This document shows, one piece after another, positions 17,271-63,405 of a DNA stretch of 64,000 nt. Every line of letters starts with the position of its first letter. Positions within the stretch are counted from its first letter, which is position 1. Under the pieces are notes generated by a model. That model had not been told where the DNA came from, did no database searches, and worked only from the letters and a program-made list of their open reading frames with translations. Source of the DNA: Octopus vulgaris (Eukaryota); the NCBI GenBank assembly GCA_951406725.2, contig OX597814.1, forward strand, positions 135,036,001 to 135,100,000, in the 5' to 3' direction. The translations under genes were made by a program, and so were the position numbers.

Positions 17271-17607
17271 TTTTTTTTTGCTTTGTATTTTATTCCTAAT
17301 AAATATTTCTTCTACATTTCTATGAATTGTTATCTTTTCTAATATCTGAAGAGGTTGCAAACTCTTTTGCAAATTTGTTCAAGATTAATTAGAAAGCAAA
17401 ATCAGCTTGTACACATTTCAGACAATGAAATACTGAAATTTTGCTATTAGCTTTTCTGAAAATATTTCACAGTAATTCTACCATAGATTTATATGAATAA
17501 AGTTATATCCGTTCTTTATAAAAGTTTCCTTAGTCTTTAAAAGATGATAAATATTGTTGAAGTATCTGAATTAAAACAGTTCTTTACTGCAAATGTCTTC
17601 TGATAAT
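17271..17607 (-). other. 5' UTR part of the zinc-finger coding exon
   Basis: Strong acceptor tcttttatttcag with AG at 17608-17609; contains short upstream ORFs (MVELL*, MCTS*). Confidence 0.6.
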
Positions 17608-26171: not shown

Positions 26172-26300
26172 TCAATTGCCATCCTGAAGTTCCTTGTAGC
26201 AATTATCACAGACACGGACTGGCTTTTTAGATGATACAATTGATGACTGTTTTGTGGAACATTCATTACAGAAAATATTGCCACAGTTTCTGCAGTGATG
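26172..26300 (-). CDS. EEA1: EEA1 last coding exon, C-terminal half of FYVE and stop
   Basis: tcacag acceptor; [42 protein letters not shown]. Confidence 0.95.
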
Positions 26301-29300: not shown

Positions 29301-32300
29301 ATGTATGCCATTAATAAAATAAGTAGGTGTAGCTGTGTGGTAAGCAGCTTGCTTCCCAACCATATGGTTCTGATTTCAGTTCCACTGCGTAGCACCCTGG
29401 GCAAGTGTCCTTTACTATAGGTTTTGCTATAGCCTCAGGCTGACCAAAGCTTTGTGAGGATTTGGTACATGGAAATTGAAAGAAGTTCATTGTATGTATA
29501 TGCATATGTGTGTATGTTCATTTGTGCCTGTGTTTTCCCCTTCATCACCACTTGATAACCAGTGTTGGTGTGTTTATGACCCTGTAACCTAGCAGTTTGG
29601 CAAAAGAGACCAATAGAATAAGTACCGGGCTTCAAAAAATAAGTCCTGGAATTGATTTGTTTGACTGAAGTCAATCAAGGTGGTGCCCCAGCATAGCTGC
29701 AGTCTAATGACTGAAACAAGTAAAAGGTACATATGTCATCTAACTGTTTTGCATTTTTTTCTACATATACTTGTAGTGAAACCTGGAAGTTCTGTCTGGT
29801 ACTTTGCATCATGGCTTGTGGTTTTGCTATAATTACTTTCTGAATAGCAGTTCGTATTTCATCCTGAGTGTGGGGTTGTCATTATTTCCTTTGGGACTAC
29901 CTCAATGTGTTCAATATAAATACAAGTATTCCCAAAATGAAGTAGTCCCAAAGCAACCAATCACAAACTGAAAGGTCAAATGATCAAGCAGGCAATAGTA
30001 TGTCACTGCACTGGGAAATAACCTAGAAAACATTTCTTCATTAACATCAATTTGAAGCACTTGCTTCTGTCATAAATGAATTTCTCACTCTCTATCTTTT
30101 TCTATCATTCACTTATTTTATCATGTTACCTCTCTAATTCTCCTCTTTTCTAGTGTAGAGATCTTTTTCTTTCTACTTCTTTGTTATTCTTTCTTCTATA
30201 CATCCCTATATCTCACTGTTTGCTTGTCTCAACACCTGCCTGACATGCTGATTGACTGCTAGTTATTTATTTTCTCTCTCTCCCACTTTGGTCAATAATT
30301 TACCTATCCAATACTTGTCTCTTAATTCAGTTCTTTCTTGTATTTCTTTGATAATAATAATATGCCAATGCTGATAGGCATTGAATGCCTAAAAATTAGG
30401 ACATATTCCCATTCCTCTGAATTTTGTTTTATCTTTTCCGTGGAAAGACTATGATGTAAAATTATCACTTTTCCCTATATTTTCCTTGTAGTTTGGTACA
30501 AATCCCTTCTGTTTTATTCATATAAGAACTTTTTGTCTTTTACTTATTGTTCATTTGCATCACATGATCATTCAAAGGACAGCACTTCTCCTGCACATAT
30601 ATACTGGGTATTTTCACAACTAGCTACTCTCTCAGCACACTTTTATACTTCCATACCCCAAAATTCTTATCTCCCTGTCTCTATAAGAAATTATTACTAT
30701 TCATGTATTGTGTGTACACTTACCTAGACATCATGTGATGTTGTAAATGAGAATCATTGTTTACAAGTGAGATTGTTCATTTCCAGGCTTTCATGAAAAA
30801 CATGTATAGCAATGGGAAAATAATACTTTGCTTGGAAAAGTTGAGGGTTGGCGATGGAAGGGCATATGTAAATCTGCTTCAACAAATTCCATCTAATCCA
30901 TGCAAGCATAGGATAGTAGACGCTAAATAATGATTATAATGATGATGACGTAGTACACTGGTTTTAATTATATTTCCATCTTTTAGAACAAACTGTTACT
31001 AGGGATGGAATTTTTTGAAATTGTTTCAAGAAAAAAACAGAAATATTTGTGGTAATATCTTTTAGACTTTCAGTTTTAGAATAGAAGTAATACTTTCCAC
31101 TGGGATTTAGACAAGAGCTGGAAAGGGTCATCATTAGCTTCTTATAATGTCTATCTTCTATGCTGGCATGGGTTGGACAGTTTGATAGGATCTGTGGGTG
31201 GAGGACTACATTGGGCTCCAATACCCACCTTGGCATAATTTCTATAGCTGGAAGCCCTTCCTAATGTTAACCACTTTATAGGATATATTGGGTGCTTTCC
31301 TCGTGGCTACAGCTCTAGTAAGGTCACTGTACAGCTCATAAGGAGATTTTAGATTAAAGAAGGTGGACAGTGTCCTTATAAAAACCAAACCACAACAGAA
31401 AACAAGTTTATGTTTAAAATCAATATGCATAGGAAGAAATTCTTGACAACAATTCATAGAAGTTTACAGTTAAACATATTGATAGACAAAATATCTACTT
31501 ACTTTCCGAATTGTCACAGAAAAAAATTTGGCACAACCCATACATTCAGTCACTTGACTATCATCGGTCCATTTTCGACTCTGTACTTTGGTTGTCATAA
31601 TCTAAAGAAATAGAAATGCATAGAAAAGTATTTCTACATATAGTCATAAAGATTTAGAAACAATGCCTCTTAAGAAACAAATTAATATGGCCATCTAACT
31701 GTATTGTAATTAATAATACAAAATATGGAGCTAATCATTTGAGTGATCTTTATTATTCTATTTATATTTCATATCAGAGATAGACATGCTAGAAACTCAC
31801 ATCACTTTAAATGCTGGATAAATTAACACTGTTAAGCTATTTAAAATGCTTAAGATATTTTGACTTGAACAGCTCATGGTTTTAATTAGTACTTTCTGTG
31901 TAATTGTTGTAATAATTATCTTAGGGATTGCTGTCATTTAATGACCTGAAACTAGTGCACTAACATAGCAGAATGTTTTGCAGAGAGCATTAATATCAGT
32001 ATAAATTTGTGATTGCAATAGGACTTGATAATTGCTTAAAATGAATTCAACATCCTGGTATTTCCTAATTGATCCTTTCTTAAGCAAATACTATCTGAAG
32101 CACAGTTTAGTTGTATATTTGCCCTTTTTCAATAGTTCACCATTTTCCACTACACTTATTGTCTGTCTTGTTTTATAGGTCCCCAGAATTGTATCTAGCT
32201 GAAGCTCATTCTTTGTCACGTGAGCAACCAGTCTCTAATTCTCTTTAGGCTCTATATTGAAATGAAGTTCCTTTTGTAAAATTGTCTTTTCATTGAACTG

Positions 32301-33631
32301 TACAAGGTTATGCATGTTCGCCAATCATTGATTTCTCTTTACAAACCTATTTCCTAATTGCCCACAAGAGGCTAAACATAGAGGGGACAAGGACAGACAA
32401 AGGGATTAAGTCGATAACATTGACCCCAGGGTGCAACTGGTACTTATTTAATCGACCCTGAAAGGATGAAAGGCTAAGTCAACCTTGGCAGAATTTGAAC
32501 TCAGAACGCAGTGGCAGACGAAATACCGCTAAGCATTTTGCCAAGCGTGCTAATGTTTCTGCCAGCTTGCTTTTCTCTTTACAAACCTGGCATTAATCAG
32601 TATATACAACTATCTCTTCAGAAGAAATTCATTGCTACACTATGTATTCTCTAAAACAAATAATGTTTTGTTTATTTCCATTTTTTCTTCTGCTTTATAT
32701 CCATTTCACTATCCTTTGATAAATGGAATAGTTTTACAAAAAGGATAATAGGAATCTGTTGGAGCTTATGTCTTAATAGCTCAAAGCTCCCTCTATTATC
32801 AACTTTTCAGTTTAAAATAAAAACTTTCCACAAATCTGAGCTTAGTTAGGAGCTGTATGCAACTGATATAGCAGAATTTTAACTCAAGACTTTGCACAGA
32901 AAAGGCTCAAACTGTAATCCTATAGCATAATGATTGCAAAATAGTAAGAATTCAGAGAAAACAGCCAACAGATCAATATAACTTTGTAGTGATATGGTGG
33001 CAAGCTGGCAGAGTCATTACAACACCAGACAAAATGCTTACTGCATTTTGTCTATCGTTACATTCCGAGTTCAAATTCCATCAAGGTCAACTTTGCTTTT
33101 CATCCTTTTGGGGTCAATAAGATAAGTACCAGTTGAATACTGAGACTGATGCAATCAACTTATCCCCTCTCCTGAAAGCAAAATTTGAAACCATTTTATG
33201 TTTGTAGTGGTTGATTTCATAGACCCAATCCATTGATGAGTTTGAAGTTTTGTTACAAAAACCTTACAATCAACCTCCAACATTATATATGACAACACTG
33301 ACAGGTCTAGTGTCAGAATTCCTGATTTGTCAATCAGTATACTTTATAAAATGTAAAGATTTCTTTATTCTATCCTCACCTGTAATGATTGGTTTTCTCT
33401 ACCTAGTTCCTGTAGGGCTGCTTGAGCATCTTCTAATCTTCTTGTCACCACTGATATCCTTTCCTGAAGTGTTTCACACTCATTTTCACTGGCAAGACAC
33501 CTGTGGAAAAGGAAACATATTAAGACAAAACTATAAACAAAAGCACCATCCACATATCTAGCTACATCAATCATTCAGTCAACAAAACACATTTTACAAA
33601 TAATAACTAACTTTGTTGAAGAAATATTAAA

Positions 33632-45600: not shown

Positions 45601-48600
45601 TGAAGAAGGCATTCTCAAACTGAAGACTTTGTCCAAATGCTTGCAACAGAGTGGATGTTGCTAAAAGTACCCAAGGACCAGGTATGAGTGTTAAACTGGA
45701 TAATGGATCAAGTCTACTGTCCAATAGACCATGGCAGGATTTGAATTCGGAATGCAAGGAACTAGAACAAATACCTTATGTATCTGGTCTGTCAATCTAC
45801 TGCCTTTGATTGGTACTTTTTTTTTATTGGTTCCAAAAGGATGAAAGGGAAGTTGAACTTAATGGGATTTGAACTCAGGGCACTGAGAGTTGAAACAAAT
45901 ATTGTGAAGTATTCTACACAACTGTAATGACTGCCAATTTACTGTCGTGTGGAAGGGGGTAACAAAATATCACAAGGCATTTTGTTTGGTGCTCTACTGA
46001 TTCTGTAATTCACTGTCATTATTTCCTTTTAATAATGATTGCAATAATGAGGGCCGGTCATGGTAATCACAACAAGATTTCAGTACAATATTGATGCATC
46101 AAACTAAATACTGCAATAAAGCATTTAATCCAACTTTTTACTGCTACAGACTTTCTTTTATTTTCACTGCTCATTTTCTATCCCTAATTTACAGGCTAAC
46201 CCCATTTCAGGACAGCATATGTTAAAAATTATACCTTCTCTTCTTTTTCCTTTTCAAGGGCTGACTTTGTATTTTTCAGTTCTGAAACTTGTTTCTTCAA
46301 ACTTGAGTTCATATTGTCAAAATTGGAAATCTAGAGGTGAAGAAAAAAGGTATGTCTATGTGTAATAAAAAATTGATTACAGTGTAATAGGTATAATGAT
46401 GAGGACGAAGAAGTATAATGATGAGGATGAAGAAGTATAATGATGAGGACGAAGATAAATAAGTGAAATAAAGAATATACACCTAACCTTCTCATTTAAT
46501 GATTTTTCAGCTTCTGTTTTTTCTTCAACTAATTTCTATAAAGAAAAGAAAGAAAAAAAATGTTTTATTAGTATGTGGAATGTTTGTGATGTGTTCATAA
46601 CATACATGACATATTCCTTTAAAACAGTGTTTCTCAACCATTATTTTACCTGTGCACCCCTTTGATTCTTATTTTATTTGGGTGGACCCTCCTAGCCATT
46701 TGATGTTTAAAAAATCCTATTCATCATCATCACCATTTAATGTCTGTTGTCCATGCCAGCATGGGTTGCACAGTGTGACCAGAGCTGGCAAGCTGGGGGT
46801 GGCATCAGACACCAGTCTGATTTGACATGGTTTTTATGGCTGGATGCCCTTCCTAAAGCTAACAACTTTACAGAGTGTGCTGGATGCTTTTATATGGCAT
46901 CACACAGACGCTTTTACATGGAGCCACATAGGCACTTTTACGTGACGCTGCACATGCGCTTTTACATGACACCACACAGGCCCTTTTATGTGTCACCATA
47001 ATTAAATATTATTAGGAAGTGCATAAAAATCATTATCAAAATATTTTGTGTTGTACAAATATAACCAATAAATCGGAGATAAATTTTTACAACAAAATCT
47101 TATATGAATCCCCAAGGGCCATATGGACCCCAGTTGAGAACCACTGATTCAGAAGGTTCTTGTCATGTTGGAGTACTGGCACAATCAGCTGGTTCAGCAG
47201 GAGAGATGGTCTTATATAGCTCAATTAGGTGCATACTGTAGAAGGATCTGATGTAGTAAATATATATTGGGTCATCCCATAAATAATGCAGTTGTTTTAT
47301 ACTTTTTTTTATTTTTCAAAATTAAGATAAACAAAGTTCTTTTTTGATCTAAAATATACTCTCCTTCATTTTCTACAATGCTCTTCCACCTATCTGACAG
47401 ACTTGCAAGGCCCCTCTTCCAAAATTCACTTGTCTGTGATGAAAAATACTCCTCCAATACTGTTCTGACCTCATCTACAGAATTCATATTTTTTCCATCC
47501 AAATGATTTTGAAGACTGCGGAGTACATGATAATCAGATGGGGTAATGTCTGCCAAATAAGGTGGGTGGGGCATTGTTTCCCATTCAAACTGCTCCAGCC
47601 TTTGGAATGTCATTCTTGCTGTATGTGGCCAAACATTATCCTGATGGAAGAACACCTTTCATCTTGAAACCACAGATGGTCATTTTTCTTCTAGTGAGGG
47701 TGTTGATGAATAGTTGAATGACCAATTCCAAGCTCCTCTGCTAGTTCTTCAACAGTTACAATGGGATTTTGTTCTACCAGTGTTTGCAAGATGTCCTTGT
47801 CAAGCTCAACAGATCTTCCAGGACAAGACTGATCTTCTAGGTTGTAGTTTCCGGAATGGAATTTCAGGAACCACCATTGACACTGGTTTACACTTATTGT
47901 CCAATTCCCATATACTGCATTAATATTTCTTGCACTTTCCATTGCATTATTGCCTTTATTGAACTCATAAAGCAAAATATGCTGAATACTTTCCTTTGTC
48001 ACTTCCATTATAGCTTTGAAAATATAACTGTTAAAATCGAACTGCAATCTTCAAAACTTGCACTAAGAAAAAGCTAAGGTAAAATTTCTACCTGCTTCTA
48101 TAGCAAGTTGATGCAGGTAGTTTATCCTGTACCCCTCTGACTTTTAATTCATGCAATTGAAAAAAACTGCATTATTTATGGGATGAGCCAATATAGTAAA
48201 GTAAGTAAAGTTACCTTCTTTAGCCATGCCAACTCACATGGGCCAGTTTCCCAATTTTCATGGTAAATAAATTCCCCACCTGGACAGGACACCAGTCCAT
48301 TGCAGATATAGTAGATATGAGATATGTTAATTAGCTTCTCGTTAATTAATTGAGACAGCAATTAAGTCCAACCCATGCTAGCATGGAAAACGGACGCTAA
48401 ACGATGATGATGATGATGATGACAGCAATCAGATAACTATTAAGGAGTATAGATGAACAAGAGAGTTCTAGAGTTGTTTTAATTAAATATTAAAGAATAA
48501 AAGGAGTATGAAAAGTAAACACTAACTATGGAGTAACTTATGTATTTTAACTGAATTCATATTAGGGAGTAAGTTAGGTATTTTAATTAGAGAGCTTCTG

Positions 48601-51600
48601 GAGTAATGGGGACACTTTAATTGATATCATGAAGAGGTAAAACTCACTAGATATTGTTTAAACTTGGATCAGCCTTAACTGAGCAAATCTATGATAAAAA
48701 GCAATGCAGTCATGACTGTCCCATCTTTTTCCCATGTGCCAGGAACCGAGGATCACATTACTTAATGTGTTGGGAGTGATTCAAATGAGATTTGGTTTCT
48801 ATTTCTAGCAAGTTGATCATCACAGAGAGGTTCTCCACTGTCTCAAAAAAATTACAGCTAAAGTGATATTCCACTAGAAAGTGGTGTTGAGCTGAAATCC
48901 TTTCTTGGATCTGGAGAATGCTGTGTATTCTTCCTTGAATAAATTACATGAAGATAAATTTGCTTTCCAACTACATAGTTCTGGGCTGATCAAATCCTTG
49001 TGAGTAGATTTGGTAGATAGAAATCGAAAGAAGCCCATTGTACATATATGGGTATCTTTCTTTTGTTCTCACCACTGCTTGATCATCCGGTGTTGGATTG
49101 TTTATAATCTTGTAACTTAGAATAAGTACCTAGCTAAAAAACAAAAACAAGATATAACAACTAGGTTTGATTAATTTGATTAAAACCTCTTTAAGGTGGT
49201 GCCCCAGAATAGTCAGTCCAATGACTGAAACATGTAAAATATAAAAGATTTATCCATGACTTATATGTATATCATATCATATTTTACATATAAAAATATC
49301 CCTGCACATCCCATACCAACCACTGGTAATGTTTATATAACATGCAAAAATTAAAGCATGATATAAAAGACTACCTAGAAGCCATCAACTATCTCAATGG
49401 CCCACAAATGTATTGAATTTGAAATGTTTGAAGAAAAGGCTTGATGCCTGGACCCTGCTGCTAACCCCCAAAGTATTCTTTTTTTCTTTAGCTTTAAGCA
49501 GAGGGAAAATAAATCTGCCACTGGACAGGACACTATTACAGGAAACTTTCAAACAAAACCTGATATATATCCTCTATATCAAAATGGGCAAATGTTTTGG
49601 TGATAATTCTGAAAGATAATTTAAGAGAATATATACTGGGAAAGGTAAAAAAGGCAATACATACTGTTTGTGATTGTAAATTAGCTTGTAAAGTGGTAAT
49701 TTGTTCTTCATATGCTTGTTTTGAACTTTCGAAAGCATCACCTTTTTCTTTGAGTACTCTCTTATAATTTGTCTGAAACAAAAACAATTAGAGAAATTAA
49801 TAGGACTCTTCCAAGGAAAAATGACTTTATCATAGTATTTATGCAGAACATTAATTTTATACCTATGGTCAATGCATTGTCACGTACACTATGAGTTAAC
49901 AGAATAAAAAGTGGGTCCCCATGCAAACGTAGGAAAATGATTATAAAAATGATGATGATGATGATGATGACTAATTGTAGTGTGCCGATTAATGTTGATA
50001 TTTGAATAATGCTAGTATATTTTCACTAGTTACACAAACGAACGTATAAGGATATGTGACATTTTCTTTACATGTATGTTGTTACAAATCAAATGACAAA
50101 AGAAGAAACAGTAGGTATACTCTGTTCTTATAGCTAAAACATTTTTGGAGTAGTGTACTTTAAGAGCATAGATGACTGAGCAGACAGAGTGCTGCACACA
50201 CAGCTGTAATAGTAGTTGTTTGAATCTTATCTTTGGCACTGTCTTGTGTCTATAAGCAAAATAGTAACTCTCAATTTATTTAATCCACCCAGCTATTCAC
50301 AATAGTTATTGTCACTTGGGATGTTGGTTGCATCGAAGTCAACTCATCTGCCATCATGATCAATGAGGGAATTTCTAAGCTGTCACAGCCTGATAAAAAT
50401 AGTAAATAAATTCCTTCAGATCACATCCTTTCATGAGAAACAGATGGAAATATTGGACAATGTAATCCTAGATGCATACTCAATAAGATAAGATGGTCAT
50501 GGTTAGAATGCCTTTAATAGTAGGCATGTTCATCCGGATTAAATGACAACACTGAAACAAAGGAAGGACACATTTGGAAAATATAATCCTAGATATACAA
50601 AATGATGGTACAGCCATGGATGGAATGCCTTTGATCATAGATTTGCTTAGTTAGGCTTGATCTGAGGCTTAACAACAACAATTGGTATAACAGAGTAGGA
50701 AGCATTTGTTCCTCAAAATAGTGGAAACACTGTAAAATAGACAGTGGCAGCTTGCAGTGCTGATATCACAAAATGTAGAAAGAAGAACCAATGATCTGTT
50801 GACTTGATTTTTCCTAAAATACATTAGGTAGTGCACTTATGACAAAAGGAATCAACAGACCAACTACAATCATAATGGAAATGCTTTCTTTATTTACTCT
50901 ACAGTTAACAATAATGAACTTATTGTATACAGTACTTAGGTGCACAACTCATCAGAAAAAGGAACCAAGGCTGAAAGAACAGTACATAGAATATGGAGAG
51001 AAATTGAACAGTGAAAATGTCTACAAAAAAAGGGGGTGGGGTGAGGTTGGGGGAACCCAAGGTTGTTAATGCTGATAAGACAGTGCAGAAACAAGTGAAA
51101 ATTTGTACAACTTGTAAAAAAGAGGTCTTAATTGTGACAGAGCTGTTACAAGCACAATGTCACAGCAAAATTATTCATAAAATTCTATCTCCACATTTTA
51201 CAAAACTAATGTATTTCTAACTCTAATCCAGAGCAAGTCAAATCATATTTAGCAGAATGGGGTTAGTTTTAAGGTTCTGTCTTGCCAGAATAAGATACAG
51301 AAGAGCAAAAGAGAGAATGAGAAGAAAAAAAAAAGAATACAAAAGAAAAGGCTTTATGTGTAGAAGTGACAAAACTGTAGAAGAAATGGTAGTTCAGTGG
51401 CAATAATATTAATTGCAGCTAGTAAACAACAAAGCTAATACAATATCCACTGCAGATAATACTGAAGGATGTCACATGCAATATATATTAAATCTTTAAG
51501 GACACACAACATGGAAGAGGTGCAATCATGCAGAGTGCATCAAAGAATGAAAGCAAAATAGAACTGACTTTCAATTTACTTTTTTTATTGTTTACATATA

Positions 51601-54600
51601 TGGCAAGGTAAAGCTTTGATAATAAATTAAACTTAACAAATGCTGTTTTGTTAATTATAAAACAAAAACAAAAGGTGTTTATATACCCGGGTCTGAAATG
51701 CAGACAACAAGTAGTTTATTTAACACACCACCCTTAAATATTACATTTAATACATGCCAACAAAGGTGCTTCAATGTGCTAGAAATAGCAACCAATTTTC
51801 CCTTGGATCACACTTTACCATTTAAAACAAAAATAGGAGACACTAGCTAAATGCTGAAAATAATAAAGAATGATCATGATTGGAATGTTTTTTGATCATT
51901 AGTCTACTAAATCAAACTGGACTTGGGGTTAAACAACAACAGCAATCACATTTGGTAATCAATAATAAATAAAAAAAATTCTTAATCTCTTAATACAAGA
52001 TACACAAGTCAACAAATTAGATTCTACATGATCATTCAAGCTGCTAGAAACAGCAGCTATATCTACACACCAAATCACCTTATGCATGACATGACAAAGA
52101 TAATATCCTACATACCTCTAAAAATACAATATAGCCACAGATAGAATGTCTTTGAACAAAAGTCTGCACAATTAAGGGTAATCTGAGGCTAAACAACAAG
52201 GTACATTCTGAGCTAACAACAAAGGATCTAAAAGCTTGCTAGACATGCTAAAAATAGCAGCAAAATCTCATTCAAATCACAAACGACTGTCTTAAAAAAA
52301 GGACACACTGGAAAAATTAGTCCCTGATTTACAAAAGAGATGGGAACATAACAGATTTGTGTGATCAAAGCAGACTTCAAGCTAAACAAGATTCAGTTTA
52401 TTTCTGATATTTATTTTATTCAAGTTGTACCTAACAGCTGATCTGTCCACAAGCATTCATAGTGTTAGTACAGTTGTGTGTGTGTGTTGTGTTTGTCCCT
52501 TATTTCTGCTTGACAACGGGAACTGGTTTGTTTGTGCCCCACCACCCAACATAGCAGTTCAGCAAAAGACACCTATAGAATAAGTATCAGGTTTAAAAAA
52601 GTAAGTACTGGGAGTGATTTGTTTGACTAACCCCTTGAAGGCAGCGCACCAACAGGGTCACAGTTCAACAACTAAAACAAGATATGTATATTGTTATTTT
52701 TTATCTTTTACTTGTTTCAGTTATTAGACTGCATCCTTCAAAACTTCCATGCTTCCTGAGATTTGCCAACACTACACCTGATTTTCTCCCCTCCATACAC
52801 ACGCAAGCATGTATCTGACTCATACACTGTTCACTTCCCAGACATTTGTACATTACTGCATATGCTTTATATGCACTTTTGACAAGTTGTGGTGCACCTG
52901 AGCACTGTATACAATAATTTCATTATTATTATGTGTGAAATGGAAATGGAATCAGTTGATAGCTACATAGACTAAGGTAAAGTAATGTGAAGCCTGGTTG
53001 TCTGAGAGCACAACTGTATGACTGCAACAAATTATGTAATCATGACTATTAATCTTAAAACACACACACAGATATGAATACAAATATCTTTTTTCATCAA
53101 TATATGACAATGATGCAATTAGTGGAATAATCACACAATTAACAGACAATAAGAATCTTCGAAATGGTACTGACCTACACACATTAAAACTGTGTGGGGC
53201 TCAAGAGGGAGCCTTTATGTGGCTGTTCAATCTGCTAAAAATGACAGCCAAATGCCCCACAAATTGCATTCCACCAGCTTAAAAAAGGAACACGTTGAAT
53301 AATGTAGTTTCAAATACACTGCATCTGGTGGGGGGATGGAATGGTTAAGACTACTTAAAGAGATTTTTAATTCCTGATCTTTTGGACCAGGGTGATCTGG
53401 GACTAAACAACAAATTCATGATGAGTGTCAGCCTCCATAGCTAAGAGCCAACCTCCCCTTGCTCGAATACAAAATAATAAAGATATATAATTGAGTTTCA
53501 GCTTCAAAGACATGATGACAATTCCACCACTACCACTACTACCAGAACCATATCATCATCATCCTCATCATTAACATCATCAGTTTTATTTGTATGTTGT
53601 TTTTTTCCCCACTGTTAAATGCAGCCTGATAAGAGAAAATTTGATTAAAGTACCAAAACTAGTTATTTCCAAAACAAAAAAAAGCGATCACTTACCAACC
53701 TCTCAATACCTAGGAGAGGAGGGAGGGTCATCTGGTGAAAAATTAATGCCACTGGGCATGCGGTATATATTGTGTTAGTATGATATTATGGAGTAAAGTG
53801 TATATAGTATCAGTGACTATGGGTTTTAAATATTTCTGATGATAAAATGAGCATATTTCCTTTCAATAAATATATTGAGTGTGTGTGTGTATATGTGTAA
53901 TTATATATTTATATATATGTATGTAATATAAATGAGCGTGCAAGTATATGTATGTATATGTAAGTGTATGTGTATATATGTATATCTATACACACACATA
54001 AACACATAAATATATACATATACATGTACATATATATATACATACATATTTATATATAGATACACATCTGTATGTACATATTTATATCTATATATATATA
54101 CTGGATGCAATATTACCTCTTTGTCTTCAAAAGCTTTCTTCCCAGACTCCAGTTCTCCAGCTTTAATTTCCAGATTTTTCCTCACTTCTTCCAACTGGGT
54201 CTCTACTTGACATTTGTCTTCACAAGTTGCATTATGTTTCTCAGTCAGTTCTGAAATCTGTAAATGTACACAGACTAACTTTTATATCTAGAAATTCTTG
54301 CCTTGAACAGATATAATACTTATGTATCATAAATAGTAGATATAGTACTGTTATGTCACAAGTTCAGGACAAACAGTATTGCAGTGTGATATCTCCTGGA
54401 TATACAGTATTATTGAGTCATATCTCTAGCAGTTAGTGTTGCTGTGTCATACCTCTTGCAGGTACTATACTGCTGTGTCATATCTGTAGCAGATATATTG
54501 CTGTCTCACATCTCTACCAGATACAGTTCTATGGTGATATATCGCACATTGATATACCAGAGCACTAGTCACCACATCTCTAGCATGTATGACACATATT

Positions 54601-57600
54601 ATTTTTGATAATATTATGCTAACCAATATCATATAAATATAGTCTTGTTGTAACAAATCTCTAACAGATAAAATAGTACTATGTTACATCTGAAACAAAT
54701 ATAACATTCAGCCATATCTTTAACTTTATACAACATTTATGTCGTTGTTGTAGAGAGGAAATGCTTGAATAGATAAGGTATTGCACTGCCAGCTAAGAAG
54801 GCTTTTGTTCAAATCCACTGCAGGTATTTCATTATGAGTCTTAATATGTGCTTCTGTTCATCTCACCACAGTGAATATATCTGAAACTGCTACAAAAGAC
54901 AAACATCACATCTAAGAGAAGGCTTATTTGTGTAATGCCATGAATATAATTTTTGAATGTATCAGAATTCTTTAACTTTTTCTCATTTGATTTGGGATTA
55001 AATACCTTACATGAGAGAAGGTATATGGTCTAGTGGCTAATCATCTGGCTCTCAATCATAAGATTGTGGGTTTGATTCTTCATCTAGGGGTTATGTTGTA
55101 TCTTTGGGCAAGACTCTTTACTTCCCATTGTTTCAGTTCACTCAGCTAGCAAAGTAAGTATTAAGACTGGCAGTGTTTGGTCAGTGTCAAGTAAGTGTAC
55201 AGCATTAACAAATCAGTGGTATGACCAAAATCCATCAGTTATGAAGAGGGATATGTCCAGGAGTGGACTACTATATATTATCTATTTTCACCTTGTCTGA
55301 ATTCAGAAGATTTTATAAAGGACTGAATGTTAATGAGTGAACAAATAAATTATTGATAAATATAGTAAAATACCATGGGAGTTGATAATCATCAGTAATT
55401 TGTGTACAGAAAATTGAGAAATGATTGGAAGGTGAAATATAAAAAAAAAGTCTTTTGATGTAAAATTCTATCATCAAGAGAGCCTTACTTTTGCAAGGCT
55501 TTATCATACTCCAAGAATATTGTTTCTAGAAGTAAAGTCGTAACATTAAAACAATGTTTATTTTTTAGAATAATACAGTTTGAGATTTGTAATTAAATAG
55601 TGGAGTGTAGTTTGGGTTATGTGTGATATGTGGACAAGCTAACCCTTTAGCATTCAAACTAGCCATATCTGGCTCAAATATTCTACTTGTTTTATGCTTA
55701 AACCATCCAAATCTGGCCTCTCACCCTTACCCTACAATGTTATTCTAAAAATAAACAATTACATGACTAAAATCTTAAAGCTATGAGACAAAGTATGATT
55801 AATTCAAAACAATGTGAATAAATAAGCATTACATTTGACAGAATAATTTGAATGCTCAAGGATTAAATTAATCTTTTATTTGGATTTCTTTGTGTTGAAG
55901 TTGAATAAAGCTGAGATGAGTTACAGTTCAGATAGTAGTAAATTGTTTTTTTATTTAATTAATTAATTGTTATTTCTGCTTAGAGTTCATTTGTATTTGC
56001 CTTAAGCTTGTAGCTGTCTGTGGTACAATTAAAGTTTGTAGCTTATAGTTGAACAGAGTCCATAGTAAGTATAGCTGTTTAGGACATAGCTTCAAAGTAC
56101 CCAAAATAATTCGGCATTATAGAGTAGACCAATTAACCTGTCACATTAAAAGAAGATAATATTGAAGAAATAATATGCTGAATATTGATTTTAAAATAAC
56201 GTTCAGTACTAATTGATTTTTAAATGGCCCTCTTTTATACTTTTACATGCATAGATAGAAATTCCAGAAGAAAACAGTTGTGATAAAGAGATATTAAATA
56301 AAAAAAAAAACCCAAAAAGATGGATGCAAAACTTTTTTTTTCTTAATCTTTAATCTCTTCATGCTATCATGATTGATAAATTAGGACATTTTCTTATGAC
56401 TTAGAGAAAATGCTTTTGTAATGACGCTTTTCTAACCAATAACTACTCAGCTAAGTGAGAAGAATGCTTAATTTCAGTAGAACCACCTGAAGAAATTAGA
56501 ATTATTGCATTTATTTGTATATAATATGCAATCATATATAATGTGTACACATAAATATAGGCAATCAAATCTCAGAACTTGTAGCCAATGCATAGAAAAT
56601 AAAATATGTGCAGAAAAAGTTTGTTGTGTAAAATAATGTTTTAATTAAAAACTGTATAATAAGTATGCACATACTTTGGTCACAAAAAAAAGATTGCACA
56701 AAATGAGATTTTCCTGTACAATGATTACTGATTTTTCTTTGGTAGTACAATGTGTAGGAAAAAGAGTGTCTAGTCAAATTTATAATACCTGTTCAACCAG
56801 CTGATAGGGACTAAACAACAATAACAATACTTATGTACCATCAACTCTATAGTGAGAAATTTCTGTTATGCACAAATTGCATATGGCCAATAAAGAACAA
56901 AGGTGAATAGATAGAAAAGTATTAAATAAAGATGTATATTTGCAGTTTTAGAAACCAGTGTTTCATGAATAAGACAACTGATAGCTTTTGAAAGGGGAAA
57001 CAATGAATTTAACAGTATTAGTAATGTTAGTAACAGTAGCAGCATTAGCAGTAGTAGTAGTAGTTGTATTAGCAGTTACTGCAGATTGAATATGGGTTGT
57101 TTAGTAATAAAATATTGAATATTATACTTTTAATCACTCTGTAATAGTATTCTGTTGAATAAAATGTGTAGTTTGGACTATATTTAATGTCACTTACAGC
57201 AATTTGTGGTCAAACCAAATATTGTTCTGCAAGAACAGTGGATAACTGGAAGATTTCCAGTTTGCAACTAATTGCATCTATCCTAAATTCGAGAGCAAAC
57301 TGATTATTCTCTTCAACATATAAAGGAAGTCTTTATATTTAGAAATTACTTATAGAAATCAGTTGAAACTTTAAGTTCAACTAATGAATTGTACTTTAGG
57401 CTTGCAAGTCTAAGGATTCTGCCAAGGTGTTCTTTACAGTTTATGTCTGTGCAATATATTGTAGCAGAAATAGTCACAGAATCTGTGCTTTTAGACTTTG
57501 TTCTAATTTGGGAGAAAATTTATTATTTAACTAGTGTTCTAATTGAAGTCATGCTTTTAAAGAAAGTAACAGGCATGGCTGTGTGGTAAGAAGCTTGCTT

Positions 57601-60600
57601 CCCAACAACATGCTGGGTTTAGTCCCACTGCATGGCACCTGGGGCAAATGTCTTCTACTGCAGCCTCAGACCCACCAAAGCCTTGTGAGTGGATTTGGTA
57701 GACAAAAAATGAAAGAGGCCTGTTGTATATGTATATATCTATGTGTGTGTGTGTACTTTTGTGTCTGTGTTTGTCCCTCCATCACTGTTTGACAACTGGT
57801 GTTGTGTTTATGTCCACATAAGTTAGTAGTTTGGCAAAAGAGACCGATAGACTAAGTACTAGGCTTAAAAAAAATCCTGAGGTTGATTTGATTGACTAAA
57901 ACACTTCAAGGTGGTGCTCTAGCATGACTGCAGTCAAATGACTGAAACATGCAAAAGAATAAAAGAATATGTCTATTTATCTACATTGTAGACCATACAG
58001 CAATACTGTATTGTAGGATATACTTCTTGGATGTAAAGTGAATGAGTAGCAACAAAATCAGCCTAAACTTGTGATATGGCTGTTAGAACATACTTTGTCT
58101 TCACATAAAAGAATATCACAGCAATAATGGAATGTTTCAATTATTTACATGAACATAGTTCCATTCACTTCAAATAACTTTGATTACAAATATACAAACA
58201 TCCTGACAGGTTATTAGGTTGTTATAACATTTTGTAAATCCTAACATGTCTTAAACTCATGTTAGGATTTAGACACAAGAATAGTTAATGAAAAAATGAG
58301 CAGTTACTATCAGCTTAAATAGCTTGCTAATTATGCAAAGCTATCTGTATTAGGCTGCTTTTTCTAGACCTGGGAACATGTAGTTTTAGTACTCAAGACA
58401 ATAAGGATAGTTTTGTTGTTCTCACATGTGATTTAATTTGATTGATTTCTCAGTAAAATTAGGTTTTTCTAAAAGATGTTTTCTGGAATGACCAAGTATG
58501 CCCCTTAAATATGAGAGAAAATTGGCAAGAACAATTTTTAATTTTTAAGTTAATATTCTTGTATAAATATTAAGACTGCAAGCATATGTAATAATTTCTT
58601 AAGCAAGCATAAAGCTTCAGATTTATAAAAAAAAATATAAATTTTAATGTGTCATATTTTCCCACTGGACACAAACCATGTTAAAGAAATACAAGAAAAA
58701 GTTTGTCTGTTTAGCTCCCTCTCTTTTACACGAGCATGCACGCACGCACATACTATGATAAAAAATTTTTTTCAATATGGTAGCTCTCAGCAGCTACATA
58801 TCTCCCAACTGTGTATCAACTACATTTTCTACATCCCAAATTTATCATCATATTTCAAAATTCGAGTATATGTGGGATTGATTGATAGCTTGATATGAAC
58901 TTTGCATATTTAAAGCTATGCAACAATATTTAAAATACTCAACATCTCCTTGGTCTAGCAATAAATATTCCGTTTCTGATAAATATGCTTTGTCATTCAG
59001 CACAACCATTATCAACATTCCAACATCAACTACAAACATAGATATATTTACTAACACCATCACACACATTCATTTATTCGTATCTCAAATAAAATAAAGT
59101 AATAAATCAAGTTCCAGATACAACTTTTTTTTTCACACTTCACTATATCTCACTTCATTCTTTATATTATGTTAAAAATAATTTTAAATGGTTTTTCTTT
59201 TAAAACCAATTCTTCTTTAAAACATTATGAACATTTGATCTTATTTGTATTTAGGTTTGGATTTTACAAATTTTATTTTAAATCGTCTAGAGATAAGTTG
59301 ATAAATAGAAACTTCCATTGACACATGATATTTGTGTTGACCATCATAATATAAACTTGAACATTCTTCATTTTAAATTAAATAAATTCTCTGTATTTAA
59401 TTGACAGTATGTTTGCAAATAGTGCTGAAAATATGAAAAAGGGTAAAAGTAATGTAGAAGAATATTAGCAAAATAGCCTACACCAGTGAGATTAAGTATA
59501 TATGTTGGGGAGAGGGACATGCATAAGAAGCAAGCAAAGTTACAACTGAAGCATAGACAGCAATAGGCCAATGCAGTGCATTTGAGCAAAGCAGAAAACC
59601 TTTATTTGATATAACAAGTTACTTACCTGTTTCTCCAGTTCCTTTTGAATTGACAATGCCTTCTCCAGCCTTTGTGCCAATTCTTTATTATTCTTCTCAC
59701 TACTTTGCTGAAGCTGCAACATATATGTACACATTAGTTGAATGACTAATGAGTGACAAGATTTGCAATTGTTTGTGGAAAGGTGAATGAGTTGTGTCAT
59801 GTTACATGGGTATTGGCATCATAATTTGAATGATGTTATAATAAATGAGTGATGTGGTAGTCAATAGCATTATGTCAACAGCAATATGAACAGCAATTTG
59901 CAATAGCAATATGAATTAATAGCTGCTCAACTGACAATGGTTTTATTAATAATTTGATATTTGCTACTCAGAAAAATATTTTGAGTCTACTTCCCTACAT
60001 CATAAGAATCATGCCTTCTGGGTTTCTTATCTCTCATCCCAGAACCTGTTATTATTCACAGTCTTCAACAGTTGAGGATGATGCCCTTTTGAATTCCTTT
60101 TACTCCAATGTATTCTTGCCCCTATTTAACATTCATGATTTGAAACTGCTGTGCTAATTATATCAGAAAGGGCACTGGTCTTTCAGAAAAAAATGAGAAA
60201 GGGTGAAAGGAAGGTAATGAGAAAAATAAAAGAAAAAAGAAAATTAAGAGTTGTATCCCTTCAGCCCATTTGATTCAGAATTAATATGGTTGGTATAATT
60301 AAATGGGAATGCCAAAGTTAGTAAAGCTGCATGCTTAATCTGGAGAGGATGGTGTTTTCCAGTTCAATAAAAGAAACTTGTATAGAATTTAGGAGGTCAG
60401 TAGAGTTCTTCAATCTAAAAGTATGAGCTCTTTCAGCTAAATAAAGCCTGCATCTCTTTGATTCATTAATTCATTCCACAATGCCCACATTGATGGTACA
60501 TGGTGTGCATTTAACCTTCAGGTCCCAGATATGGCTAGCTAACTTTGTGGCCTTCTGTTTCCTCATACATTTTGATGATTTAATTACAATTATGTTGAAA

Positions 60601-62620
60601 AAAACCCCAAAAAAACAACGAACTTTTGATACTCATGTGATTCTTGCTATTTTTAGCATACTAAACGACCATGTAGAGGATGAACAAATAACCTTTGAAT
60701 TTGTTTGAAAGAGAGAAATTAAAATTGTAATAAAGTAATGAAATAAATATATTGAATGAAAAAACAAAAACTCACTTTTTCTAATGTTTTTGCCAAATTG
60801 TTACATTTCAATGAGCTTTCTTCTAAATTTTTTTTCGTAGTATCAAAGAGCTTTTCAATATTTTCAGAATCTTTATTTTTCTGTTCAAGTGTATTTATCT
60901 AAAAAAAGAAATGCGATGATATAATATTTACAATGAAAGAATAATTAAGTAAATGAATATGCATGTTGTCATGATCAATGGTAAAAGTGAGGCTTTGGTT
61001 ATTAAATGTACAATTATTATGCTTATTGGCTAGATCATCCCTGTGGATCTATCCTTGATGAATACATAGGTGCAGGCATGGCTGTGAAGTTAAGAAGCCA
61101 TGACCAACATTGACCAACATGTAAATCATGTAATATTAGTAAGTGAGAAAAGCTTTGCTTTGCTAAACATACATTGAAAGGATAAATTTGGATTTTAGCT
61201 GTTTATAGATTTCAATAAGAATACAAGAAATATATTTCTCTTTCTTGAAATTTTTGCACATAAAAGATATAAAGATAACATATTTCACTCATATGCAAAG
61301 TTACCACTTACACTGGAATTCAGTTCTGCTGATAAGGTAGCAATTCTGGCTTCAGATTTTTCAAGCTTTTCTCTCAAGGAACTATTTTCTTTAATATTTG
61401 CTTCATTTGTCTACAATAAATTCAAGAAACAGCTTTTCTTAATGATGTATTCAACTTATATACAAATAAATTATCTATTTCAATTTTGATTGATTTATTA
61501 ACACTAAAGAGAAACACAAGTATAGAGCATTATTATTATCAAGGATAACATTTAAGAATTCTCAAGTTAATTCTCGGGGTTGTAGTAGTTAAATAAACTT
61601 TTATAAATTAAGGCCCCTGTAAGGGGTATAAAAGATGAGTTAAAGCTAAAGGAAAACTTGAGATGAAATAGTTTTCTTTTCAGACATTAGACTTGAAATT
61701 TAAGCTTCAGAAATGAGATTACAACAGGCTAGGGACAACAAAGGAATAATCTGCTTTGTGTTATAAATAATCTTTGTTGTTGGCAGCAAACTGCATCCAG
61801 TAGTGTCATTTCACCTTGTCCATTTTCACCCTTCCAACATTGACAGGACAACCAGTCAAAAGCTTGGGGAAAGTCTTTGACAGCAGACTGGAGAATACTG
61901 TTTCCATTTATAGAACTAGCAAAACGTCTTGAGAACTGGCTTATCAGAGTTGACAAATGGATTGCTCAGCCTCTTCAATGCTTGGGTATAACAGCATGCC
62001 ATTCTGCTCAAGATTTTGTGGCCTCAGCCATTATATGTCGGCATGTCAACTCTGGAAATCCTGCAGAGGAAGATGAACAGATTTTCGAGGAGGTGGCTTG
62101 GCTTAGCAAGGAGCCTGTATGAGTCAACCAAGATCTTATGACTCCCATTCAGCAAACTTCCAGAGGGCTAACATGCCGTACTGAGATCCAGCATATTAGA
62201 TTTTCAGATTTCTAACCAAGGCTGTCTACAACAATTTACCAAGTGCATCCACAAGATGTCTCTTAAAACTGAATATATGTTAATATTTATACGAGACAGT
62301 ATTACTGATCTTTTTCAGTTAATTTTACCAATTGATTTCACACACAAGTTAGGAGATAATTCAAGATGGTACTCATCAGAAAGGCTGGCGTAAAGAATAT
62401 GGCCATACTTTGCATGCCAGCCCCTCTGATGAGCATTGCCTTAGTTTTCCTTTAATTTGTATGTGAAACCAATTGGTAAAAATCAACTATAATGGATCTA
62501 TAATACTGTAAAAGATAAATGATATACTCACTCTATTGATAAATATACGAGTGCCTGTTTTTTTCTGATTAATGGATTCTTACATGACCTATGTGTGTGT
62601 GTGTGTGTGTGTTTCATATA

Positions 62621-62671
<51 letters not shown>

Positions 62672-62786
62672 TCAAAATGGAGATAAATACCATTTCTCCA
62701 TGTGATCGGCTTGAAAAACTGCTAAGATATTAAGATACTTTTTCTTAACATGAAACCAATGGTAGCCTTAATATACAAATAAAGAA

Positions 62787-62864
<78 letters not shown>

Positions 62865-63405
62865 AGTAAAATGAAGATTATGAAGAAAGGAGGAGAAAAT
62901 AAATAAGATGTTAAACACATACTAGAAAAAGTGTAGAAATATGAAATGAAACAGGAAAAAAGGATCTAGATTCTCTGATGAATATAAAAATGAGGATGAT
63001 GATGATAATGATTATTGCTTTTAAGCTCTAAGACAGCCCAGATTAAGCAAACATATATTCAAAGACATTCCATCCATGATCACTCCAGTCTTCCACATAC
63101 TGAAGAATATACTATCCTATGTGTCCTGTTGTCAAGAGATTTGAAGGAGCTTACGCTCCAATTTGTAACAGGCTGAGCAACCATGTAGAGGCTCCTTCAT
63201 TAATGATGATGAAGATGATGTTAGTAATAGAGATGATGACAAAATTCTTTATAATAATAAAAATTAAAGAAAAAAACCTTACTTTATTCATTTCTTTTGT
63301 TGTTTGCTTCAATTGTGAGGAAGTTTTCTTAAAATTTTTTGTAATTTCTTCAACGTTCTGTTCCAGCTGACTTATTGTTTCTTCTTTCTGAGCCAGTAGT
63401 TTTTT
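26172..63405 (-). CDS. EEA1: EEA1 ortholog (early endosome antigen 1), 3' part; 19 exons, about 689 aa visible; long coiled coil plus C-terminal FYVE domain; 5' end outside the window
   Basis: Hand-spliced GT-AG exons join in one open frame. The C-terminus reads ...[125 protein letters not shown]. This has the WxxD, RKHHCR and RVC FYVE motifs and the EEA1-type [11 protein letters not shown] segment; [16 protein letters not shown] upstream also resembles vertebrate EEA1. Confidence 0.95.
26555..27010 (+). mobile_element. Decayed 3' region of an RTE LINE in the last EEA1 intron
   Basis: Remnant [16 protein letters not shown]...[12 protein letters not shown], typical of RTE ORF C-termini. Confidence 0.65.
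27418..27634 (-). mobile_element. tRNA-derived SINE with a conserved central domain (gtcgactttgcctttcatcctttc...taagtaccag; Meta/MESC-like)
   Basis: B box gagttcaaattcc; copies near 1400 (+), 3480 (-), 12450 (-), 27940 (-), 28468 (+), 32345 (-), 32995 (+) and 45810 (-); family name from memory. Confidence 0.8.
28468..28680 (+). mobile_element. Same Meta-like SINE family, plus-strand copy
   Basis: ggtggcaggctggcag...gagttcaaattccactgaggtcaacttt...aagtaccagttgag. Confidence 0.8.
29324..29727 (+). mobile_element. CORE-like octopus SINE copy
   Basis: Aligns along its length with 18066-18462. Confidence 0.8.
31503..31601 (-). CDS. EEA1: EEA1 exon (99 nt), N-terminal half of FYVE
   Basis: ctttag acceptor, gtaagt donor; [33 protein letters not shown]. 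Confidence 0.95.
33380..33500 (-). CDS. EEA1: EEA1 exon (121 nt, phase 2-0)
   Basis: ccacag acceptor, gtgagg donor; [40 protein letters not shown]. Confidence 0.95.
35874..35928 (-). CDS. EEA1: EEA1 exon (55 nt, phase 1-2)
   Basis: ctgcag acceptor, gtaaaa donor; (E)[17 protein letters not shown](R); phases fit both neighbours. Confidence 0.92.
37343..37526 (-). CDS. EEA1: EEA1 exon (184 nt, phase 0-1)
   Basis: ttatag acceptor, gtatga donor; [61 protein letters not shown]. Confidence 0.92.
39115..39204 (-). CDS. EEA1: EEA1 exon (90 nt, phase 0-0)
   Basis: tactag acceptor, gtaagt donor; [30 protein letters not shown]. Confidence 0.88.
40301..40396 (-). CDS. EEA1: EEA1 exon (96 nt, phase 0-0)
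   Basis: tttcag acceptor, gtaggt donor; [32 protein letters not shown]. Confidence 0.9.
41239..41370 (-). CDS. EEA1: EEA1 exon (132 nt, phase 0-0)
   Basis: ttccag acceptor, gtaaat donor; [44 protein letters not shown]. Confidence 0.87.
42568..42657 (-). CDS. EEA1: EEA1 exon (90 nt, phase 0-0)
   Basis: ttacag acceptor, gtaagt donor; [30 protein letters not shown]. Confidence 0.85.
43230..43388 (-). CDS. EEA1: EEA1 exon (159 nt, phase 0-0)
   Basis: ttttag acceptor, gtattt donor; [53 protein letters not shown]. Confidence 0.88.
43712..44050 (+). mobile_element. Octopus SINE-like repeat with about 63-bp internal tandem units and the ggttggcattaggaagggcatccagc core
   Basis: About three units containing gtaaaaagcacc, then the conserved core and a (GAT)n tail; relatives near 7545, 23475, 31140, 37000, 42185, 42885 and 46722. 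Confidence 0.75.
44150..44560 (-). mobile_element. Heavily decayed LINE (CR1/Jockey-like) reverse-transcriptase fragment
   Basis: [32 protein letters not shown] resembles the WKxAxVxPIxK...NYRPISLL motif; VKGAF follows downstream. Confidence 0.5.
45029..45118 (-). CDS. EEA1: EEA1 exon (90 nt, phase 0-0)
   Basis: ttgtag acceptor, gtaagc donor; [30 protein letters not shown]. Confidence 0.85.
46235..46330 (-). CDS. EEA1: EEA1 exon (96 nt, phase 0-0)
   Basis: ctctag acceptor, gtataa donor; [32 protein letters not shown]. Confidence 0.85.
46391..46455. repeat. 22-bp tandem repeat x3 inside a 157-nt EEA1 intron
   Basis: gtataatgatgaggacgaagaa repeated three times. Confidence 0.9.
46488..46535 (-). 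CDS. EEA1: EEA1 exon (48 nt, phase 0-0)
   Basis: long pyrimidine tract then tatag acceptor, gttagg donor; [16 protein letters not shown]. Confidence 0.83.
46625..47146. mobile_element. hAT (Charlie-like) MITE with a nested SINE-like insertion at about 46722-47000
   Basis: Termini cagtgtttctcaac / gttgagaaccactg; degenerate 8-bp flanks ctttaaaa / attcagaa. Confidence 0.7.
47267..48191 (-). mobile_element. Internally deleted DD34D mariner in an EEA1 intron
   Basis: TIR ttgggtcatcccataaataatgcag with TA duplications. ORFs give the HTH ([25 protein letters not shown]) and HQDN...[14 protein letters not shown] with 34 residues between the Asp residues; the WVPHEL linker and first Asp are missing. 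Confidence 0.9.
49665..49772 (-). CDS. EEA1: EEA1 exon (108 nt, phase 0-0)
   Basis: tttcag acceptor, gtatgt donor; [36 protein letters not shown]. Confidence 0.88.
51687..51692 (-). CDS. Candidate 6-nt EEA1 microexon (ACC CGG = Thr-Arg)
   Basis: ttgttgtctgcatttcag|ACCCGG|gtatat; UGC just upstream of the AG, U-rich tract and two TGCATG downstream; preserves frame. Confidence 0.45.
52731..52932 (+). mobile_element. Short 3' end of the same CR1-group LINE
   Basis: Near-identical to the reverse complement of 20451-20640 (gcacctgagcactgtatacaataatttcattattatt). Confidence 0.85.
53696..53731 (-). CDS. Candidate 36-nt in-frame EEA1 cassette exon ([12 protein letters not shown])
   Basis: ttttcaccag acceptor, TTG|gtaagt consensus donor, TACTAAC branch point at 53774-53780, phase 0-0 with no stop; not coiled-coil-like; no transcript evidence available. 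Confidence 0.45.
54117..54257 (-). CDS. EEA1: EEA1 exon (141 nt, phase 0-0)
   Basis: tttacag acceptor, gtaata donor; [47 protein letters not shown]. Confidence 0.87.
54308..54720. repeat. Degenerate minisatellite, unit about 31 bp
   Basis: Recurring cagatatagtactgctgtgtcatatctctag-like units. Confidence 0.7.
55643..55862. mobile_element. piggyBac-type MITE, second copy
   Basis: Aligns end to end with 837-1055 (ccctttag, ggccatatc-like, cctacaatgttattct motifs); TTAA on the right flank. Confidence 0.8.
57570..57965 (+). mobile_element. CORE-like octopus SINE copy
   Basis: Aligns along its length with 18066-18462. Confidence 0.8.
59627..59713 (-). CDS. EEA1: EEA1 exon (87 nt, phase 0-0), probably an alternatively spliced cassette
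   Basis: ttgcag acceptor with a weak pyrimidine tract, gtaagt donor; [29 protein letters not shown]. Confidence 0.85.
60776..60898 (-). CDS. EEA1: EEA1 exon (123 nt, phase 0-0)
   Basis: poly-T tag acceptor, gtgagt donor; [41 protein letters not shown]. Confidence 0.88.
61312..61410 (-). CDS. EEA1: EEA1 exon (99 nt, phase 0-0)
   Basis: ttgtag acceptor, gtaagt donor; [33 protein letters not shown]. Confidence 0.85.
62297..62508. mobile_element. Fully palindromic (foldback) Tc1/mariner-type MITE
   Basis: cagta...tactg termini with TA on the right; the two halves are reverse complements around the central tggcca (62400-62405). Confidence 0.8.
62593..62862. repeat. (TG)n/(TA)n/(CA)n microsatellites
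   Basis: Direct inspection. Confidence 0.9.
63283..63405 (-). CDS. EEA1: EEA1 exon (123 nt, phase 0-0)
   Basis: ctag acceptor, gtaagg donor; [41 protein letters not shown]. Confidence 0.85.

What the first reader, a model, noticed from the sequence alone, without database searches (positions are those of the whole stretch)
59510..59860. 87-nt EEA1 exon between an upstream YCAY cluster and a downstream YGCY/TGCATG cluster
Seen (minus strand): 11 YCAY motifs within 59742-59857 upstream of a weak acceptor (gtgtacatatatgttgcag), six TGCT motifs within 59529-59593 and a TGCATG at 59518-59523 downstream of the donor. A second AG 6 nt inside the exon offers a tandem acceptor. Known: upstream YCAY clusters mark Nova/Pasilla silencing; downstream YGCY (MBNL) and UGCAUG (Rbfox) mark enhancement. 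The exon encodes 29 residues, almost exactly 8 helical turns (about 4 nm), so skipping would keep the hydrophobic face in phase. Inference: a muscle-included, neuron-skipped segment that changes tether length.
Basis: partly seen in the sequence, partly recalled or inferred. Interest (0 to 1): 0.72.

Follow-up and report, generated by a model that had tools for sequence, protein, structure and literature searches.

The report
Weak EEA1 exon, skipped neighbour
In a likely octopus gene for the endosome tether EEA1, a short exon flanked by splicing-regulator motifs is kept in all six transcript assemblies examined, while the next exon is likely skipped in one of them, so the motifs probably help keep a weakly signalled exon in rather than switch it off in neurons.

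Summary
The gene is EEA1-like: FYVE domain, match to human EEA1, long coiled coil. The 87-nt exon (59713-59627) is spliced. Among 36 exons scored it has the weakest acceptor, strongest donor, most upstream YCAY and most downstream YGCY. The downstream cluster is weakly conserved in two relatives (p 0.03-0.18); the YCAY flank is not clearly conserved.

The muscle-in, neuron-out reading is not shown. The exon is included in 6 of 6 RNA assemblies from 4 studies, with no skip branch. These runs were picked for holding the exon, their tissues are unknown, and assemblers drop minor forms, so it is not refuted either. The helical-phase argument is weak: 29 is not a multiple of 7, and 6 of 22 in-frame rod exons fit 3.6 residues per turn as well.

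Unexpectedly, 1 of 6 runs has a contig of exactly the shape predicted for skipping the next exon (141 nt, 54257-54117). A regulated EEA1 cassette exon is already known in mouse (PMC9550651). Three look-ups in the scan's earlier notes found no such finding. Modest interest.

The parts
59627..59713 (-). 87-nt phase 0-0 coding exon of EEA1 (29 residues of coiled coil)
   Evidence: spliced at both ends in 6 of 6 RNA assemblies
59714..59733 (-). weak acceptor, 53% pyrimidine, lowest score of 36 exons
59733..59738 (-). ACTAAT, branch-point-like (consensus recalled), unchanged in two relatives
59742..59857 (-). 11 YCAY motifs; the one at 59752-59749 is absent in both relatives
59866..59915 (-). four upstream TGCT, partly in a 12-nt tandem repeat; one broken in relative X18
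59708..59709 (-). second AG (possible tandem acceptor, +6); not seen used
59621..59626 (-). consensus-like donor, highest score of 36 exons
59529..59593 (-). six TGCT (YGCY) motifs, no change shown in two relatives
59518..59523 (-). TGCATG, no change shown in two relatives
60776..60898 (-). upstream exon (123 nt), joined to the 87-nt exon in 6 of 6 runs
54117..54257 (-). downstream exon (141 nt, 47 residues); likely partly skipped in run X5
   Evidence: contig of 29+141+28 nt equals the predicted skip geometry
49665..49772 (-). predicted next exon (108 nt), inferred landing site of the skip
33380..33488 (-). exon matching the coil before the FYVE domain of human EEA1
   Evidence: 1JOC, E 1.2e-5
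31503..31601 (-). FYVE exon 1
   Evidence: PF01363 positions 1-24, E 2.3e-4
26175..26300 (-). FYVE exon 2, last coding exon
   Evidence: PF01363 53 bits, cut-off 27.8

Best explanation
The 87-nt exon is a spliced EEA1 coiled-coil exon with the weakest acceptor of 36 exons scored and is included in all six RNA assemblies laid; its strong donor and the downstream UGCU/UGCAUG cluster likely act as an intronic enhancer that keeps it in, and the alternative event visible here is likely partial skipping of the next, 141-nt exon. Mechanism (inferred): U1 binds the consensus donor, MBNL- or Rbfox-type proteins bound 34-109 nt downstream help define the exon, and this makes up for the poor pyrimidine tract. 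The YCAY run is either partly chance in CA-rich intron or a weak silencer that is outweighed in the bulk samples seen.
For: Shown: inclusion joints in X1, X5, X9, X13 and unbranched contigs of 3235 and 4780 nt in X7, X8; a skip would isolate the exon on a 147-nt contig, seen in 0 of 6. Acceptor rank 36 of 36, donor rank 1 of 36, downstream YGCY rank 1 of 36. 59514-59626 has 1 change in 113 nt in X18 against 14 in 320 nt of control intron (p 0.064; both relatives pooled p 0.03-0.18); all 7 downstream motifs show no change. The same method did detect a branch at the neighbouring exon in X5 (29+141+28 = 198 nt), so it can see skipping. Literature: YGCY downstream marks MBNL-activated exons (PMC5041496, passages).
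Against: The anatomy (weak acceptor, short pyrimidine tract, upstream YCAY) is that of Nova-silenced exons in flies too (PMC8379844, passages). Runs were selected for holding the exon's words, tissues are unknown, and the assembler simplifies graphs, so rare or cell-type-limited skipping is invisible. No binding was tested. Conservation is borderline, and up to 2 changes of X19 in that stretch are hidden in the cut table. Shuffles do not single out the YGCY cluster (p 0.36).
Confidence: 0.45

Rival explanations
1. One reading: a true cassette exon, silenced by Nova through the upstream YCAY cluster in neurons or another Nova-rich cell type and kept elsewhere by MBNL/Rbfox.
For: Top or bottom rank on four independent features among 36 exons; spacing-aware YCAY score above the 0.6 cut-off of PMC2014790 and close to the acceptor; 10 of 11 YCAY unchanged in X18; fly Nova targets show the same map and short pyrimidine tracts; octopus alternative splicing is highest in neural tissue (PMC9699675, passages).
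Against: 0 of 6 assemblies from 4 studies show a skip branch; upstream flank not more conserved than control (5 of 177 vs 14 of 320, p 0.27); three other EEA1 exons have stronger YCAY scores from CAT repeats; Rbfox co-enrichment was not found in flies; skipping would not keep the heptad register. The strict 'muscle-only inclusion' form needs all 14 exon-holding runs of 4 studies to be muscle-rich.
Confidence: 0.22
2. The downstream UGCU/UGCAUG cluster works on the next exon: it lies at the 5' end of the intron upstream of the 141-nt exon, where MBNL or Rbfox binding would favour joining the strong donor to the exon after next.
For: The 141-nt exon has a weak donor (rank 29 of 36) and poor pyrimidine tract (rank 31 of 36) but almost no motifs of its own from the panel, and shows skip geometry in X5. 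YGCY in upstream introns marks MBNL-repressed exons.
Against: The cluster is 5.3 kb from that exon's acceptor; the skip rests on contig shape in 1 of 6 runs; nothing links it to the motifs.
Confidence: 0.15
3. Both clusters are chance products of low-complexity intron drift beside an ordinary constitutive exon.
For: 9 of 36 exons have some motif of a 10-motif panel at p <= 0.02, and 2 of 36 have two distinct classes; shuffle p values 0.047, 0.36 and 0.19; the exon's three changes in relatives all alter residues.
Against: The coincidence with the weakest acceptor and the low change rate downstream.
Confidence: 0.18

Closest known systems
Mouse Eea1 126-nt cassette exon (chr10:95978160-95978286, ESRP-dependent, dPSI about 0.5; PMC9550651 Table 1, passages read)
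   Same: An in-frame internal EEA1 exon under control of tissue splicing factors; the precedent for EEA1 isoforms.
   Different: 126 nt is 42 residues, six whole heptads; regulation is shown by knockout; the regulator is ESRP. Orthology of that exon to either exon here was not tested.
Nova/Pasilla-silenced cassette exons (PMC2014790, passages and score section; PMC8379844, passages)
   Same: YCAY cluster within 200 nt upstream of a weak acceptor.
   Different: No skipped form seen here; no neural depletion or Nova dependence shown.
MBNL-activated exons (PMC5041496, passages)
   Same: Several YGCY within 100 nt downstream of the donor.
   Different: Four more YGCY lie upstream; inclusion looks broad, and dependence on Muscleblind is untested.
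Human EEA1 tether (PDB 1JOC; bioRxiv 10.1101/2020.05.04.076919, first half read; 10.1101/2022.07.18.500463, passages)
   Same: C2H2 finger, long dimeric coiled coil, FYVE; coil discontinuities are tied to the Rab5-driven flexibility switch.
   Different: This gene appears to have two N-terminal C2H2 fingers; its mechanics are unstudied.

Membership tests
EEA1 | C-terminal FYVE domain | tested here: met
   PF01363 over two exons, 53 bits against cut-off 27.8 for the second
EEA1 | Similarity to EEA1 outside the FYVE domain | tested here: met
   Best PDB hit 1JOC, E 1.2e-5; oyster protein named EEA1, 44%, E 4.5e-6
EEA1 | Long central coiled coil | tested here: met
   1061 codons without a stop over predicted exons, heptad pattern by my own model; 4 of these exons confirmed by RNA
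EEA1 | N-terminal C2H2 finger | tested here: met
   Two CxxC-x12-H-x4-H motifs in locus L004, by pattern only; the exon chain linking them to the rod was not closed
EEA1 | Reciprocal orthology, Rab5 and PI3P binding | not tested
   No tree or binding test was made
Nova-silenced cassette exon | YCAY cluster within 200 nt upstream of the acceptor | tested here: met
   Cluster sum 14 (log10 1.15; cut-off 0.6, log base not stated in the section read), rank 4 of 36
Nova-silenced cassette exon | A skipped isoform exists | tested here: inconclusive
   0 of 6 assemblies, but runs selected for holding the exon and minor paths may be dropped
Nova-silenced cassette exon | Cluster conserved above background | tested here: inconclusive
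   10 of 11 motifs kept in X18; flank 5 of 177 vs 14 of 320, p 0.27; X19 does not cover 59772-59813
Nova-silenced cassette exon | Lower inclusion in neurons, Nova-dependent | not testable with these tools
   Tissues not on record; contigs give no PSI
MBNL/Rbfox-enhanced exon | YGCY and UGCAUG enriched downstream | tested here: met
   Rank 1 of 36; 2 of 355 background windows reach 6 YGCY; own-flank shuffle p 0.36
MBNL/Rbfox-enhanced exon | Motifs conserved above background | tested here: inconclusive
   0 changes shown in 7 motifs; stretch p 0.03-0.18
MBNL/Rbfox-enhanced exon | Inclusion depends on the factor or is muscle-high | not testable with these tools
   No perturbation data or tissue labels
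Register-preserving coiled-coil cassette | Length a multiple of 7, or deletion adds no heptad break | tested here: not met
   29 mod 7 = 1; junction cost 2.4 at both penalties in my own model, against 0 and -5.1 for the 141-nt exon

The most novel reading that the evidence does not exclude
The cephalopod EEA1 rod is a tunable tether built from in-frame exon modules: one motif-rich switch around the 87-nt exon lets Nova-rich neurons drop it, while the adjacent 141-nt exon is dropped in other cells, removing about 7 nm and two or three predicted heptad breaks. Cell types would then make tethers of different stiffness, a natural test of the idea that coil discontinuities drive EEA1's collapse, evolved separately from the mouse ESRP-controlled exon.
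Probability: 0.15. Interest if true: 0.6.

Novelty: new member of a known kind. Interest (0 to 1): 0.3.

Why it matters
EEA1's switch from rigid to flexible is tied to breaks in its coiled coil (bioRxiv 10.1101/2020.05.04.076919). Natural isoforms that delete such breaks would be ready-made tests. The 141-nt exon is the better candidate: it shows skip geometry, and deleting it lowers the predicted breaks from 15 to 12 or 12 to 10. The 87-nt exon is also a caution: a textbook RNA-map anatomy did not come with visible skipping. If it is simply a weak exon held in by an enhancer, it is ordinary.

Tried and rejected
Protein searches for full-length cephalopod EEA1 isoforms with or without the exon found nothing (weak evidence, the collection holds few such proteins). 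The representative search gave 30 hits, mostly single-exon fragments; the two long C-terminal ones read (P0011, P0017) do not reach this region. The atlas search gave only generic coiled coils. No listed holder is on record as RNA; I treat the six runs as RNA because they join exons at GT-AG ends and leave most intron bins empty. Use of the +6 acceptor was not seen, but a 6-nt bubble could be removed by the assembler (recalled), so this is no evidence. A hidden mutually exclusive exon that could mimic the X5 contig: one poor 39-nt candidate (52117-52079), not coil-like, rejected. Inverted repeats spanning the 87-nt or 141-nt exon: none at E 1e-5 in 46601-63200. Table 5 hid 54 joints and table 7 hid 740 loose ends; contig continuity in table 8 was used instead. 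The isoform annotation of PMC9699675 (data S1) could not be read, and its PDF supplement was not searched; it may hold the answer. PMC12445529 gave nothing on non-chordate Nova. I did not check for Nova, Muscleblind or Rbfox genes in G000.

Full report
1. Observation.

2. The gene. The window lies in a 2.8-Gb genome. A compositional exon scan of the window and 60 kb upstream gave 36 scored exons; the last coding exon was not scored. They encode two C2H2-like motifs, a long coil with 1061 codons free of stops and a FYVE domain. One exon matches human EEA1 in 1JOC, another an oyster protein named EEA1. The N-terminal exon chain is incomplete. Only 4 exons were confirmed by RNA.

3. Chance. Among the 36 exons, the 87-nt exon has the lowest acceptor score, the highest donor score, most upstream YCAY and most downstream YGCY. 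Background windows rarely match: 6 of 355 for YCAY, 2 of 355 for YGCY. Against this, shuffles of its own flanks give p 0.047, 0.36 and 0.19. Nine of 36 exons have some panel motif at p <= 0.02, and 2 of 36 have two distinct classes. The spacing-aware YCAY score of PMC2014790 (section 9 read) ranks it 4 of 36 behind CAT repeats, with 18 of 264 background windows as high. The arrangement is unusual within the gene, but not overwhelmingly so.

4. RNA. The run search listed 24 runs; 14 runs of 4 studies hold 0.12 of the words, the share expected from the three exons in the query. I laid 6 of these 14. All 6 join 60776 to 59713 and 59627 to 54257. With 31-mers a retained skip path would isolate the exon on a 147-nt contig. 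Instead it lies in contigs of 4945, 2808, 2902, 913, 3235 and 4780 nt, so 0 of 6 show skipping. Limits: the search ranks runs by words held, so samples that skip fully would rank lower; tissues are not on record; singleton k-mers are dropped and graphs simplified (Logan preprint, passages). That passage says contigs over 150 nt are reported, yet one search lists records of 71-125 nt, so a 147-nt contig would probably be present.

5. The neighbour. In X5 the long contig stops one letter past 59627, and the 141-nt exon sits alone on a 198-nt contig at record positions 30-170. Skipping of that exon predicts overlaps of 29 and 28 nt and a total of 198, an exact match. No plausible hidden exon explains it. 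The skip joint itself lies outside the stretch laid, so this is inferred; I put it at about 0.8. The other 5 runs continue unbroken through this exon's ends as far as their contig lengths show. It also serves as a positive control for the method.

6. Conservation. Two relatives were laid (X18, X19; 40 of 50 difference rows shown). Downstream 59514-59626: 1 change in X18, 0 shown and at most 2 hidden in X19, against 14 and 15 in 320 nt of control intron; p 0.064 for X18 and 0.03-0.18 pooled. All six TGCT and the TGCATG show no change. Upstream 59714-59890: 5 changes in X18 (p 0.27); one YCAY is absent in both relatives; X19 has a 10-nt deletion and a gap in cover. Motif letters overall: 1 of 80 changed in X18, p 0.16. 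The three exon changes all alter residues. These relatives differ by only about 5%, so power is low.

7. Protein argument. 29 residues are 8.06 turns at 3.6 but 8.29 at the 3.5 period of a heptad coil. Six of 22 symmetric exons fit 3.6 as well or better, the 141-nt exon among them. In my own rough heptad model, deleting the 87-nt exon costs a new break, while deleting the 141-nt exon removes two or three. Eighteen consecutive exons are phase 0-0, so staying in frame says nothing about this one. 4.3 nm and 7.0 nm are 2% and 3% of the human tether's 222 +/- 26 nm (rise per residue recalled). Any effect would more likely come from breaks or binding sites than from length.

8. Mechanism. Most likely (0.45): a broadly included exon whose poor acceptor is offset by a strong donor and a downstream UGCU/UGCAUG enhancer. 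Shown: splicing, inclusion, site ranks. Inferred: the enhancer role and the proteins involved. Rivals: Nova-silenced cassette skipped in unsampled cells (0.22), cluster acting on the 141-nt exon (0.15), chance (0.18).

9. Known. Mouse Eea1 has a 126-nt ESRP-regulated cassette (PMC9550651 Table 1, passages); human EEA1 appears in a table of mutation-linked skipping (PMC7145592, one passage). The Nova map holds in flies, where targets have short pyrimidine tracts but no Rbfox co-enrichment (PMC8379844, passages). The MBNL map is from PMC5041496 (passages). Octopus splicing rates are ordinary for invertebrates and highest in neural tissue (PMC9699675, passages; EEA1 not mentioned in its main text; isoform file unreadable). 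The listings of nine searches showed no paper on cephalopod EEA1 splicing; none was aimed at both terms together, so this is weak. The scan's earlier notes hold nothing near this place or on EEA1.

10. Verdict. Observation confirmed; interpretation partly supported and unproven. New member of a known kind; interest 0.3. The best lead is the 141-nt exon.

Noticed in passing
window 54117-54257 (-): Contig of 29+141+28 nt in run X5 equals the shape predicted for skipping this exon; it has a weak donor and deleting it removes predicted heptad breaks.
   Followed up: partly
window 39115-63405 (-) and L002: 18 consecutive phase 0-0 exons (14 in the window), 22 symmetric exons in the rod; 8 of 23 donors follow an AAG codon. 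Possibly insertion at AG|G sites in K/E/Q-rich sequence (recalled idea, untested).
   Followed up: partly
window 60783-60811 (-): In run X13 two contigs overlap by 29 nt inside the 123-nt exon; unexplained, probably one missing word at depth 7.
   Followed up: no
L004, about 8098-8202 and 6508-6614 (-): Two C2H2-like fingers in successive exons at the N-terminal end; human EEA1 has one (recalled).
   Followed up: no
window 59672, 59677, 59691: All three differences in the exon between the window and two relatives change the residue.
   Followed up: partly
window 16236-17378 (-): C2H2 zinc-finger array ORF of 380 residues with an 84-nt repeat.
   Followed up: no
window 55640-55870 and 57550-57970: Highly repeated elements in the long intron draw thousands of contigs from the RNA runs.
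   Followed up: no
window 62296-62509: Imperfect palindrome of about 216 nt (73% self-complementary) in an EEA1 intron; a possible hairpin.
   Followed up: no
window 10899-11866, 12993-13761, 20588-21034, 47272-48050: Broken transposase-like and reverse-transcriptase-like reading frames, judged by eye from translations.
   Followed up: no
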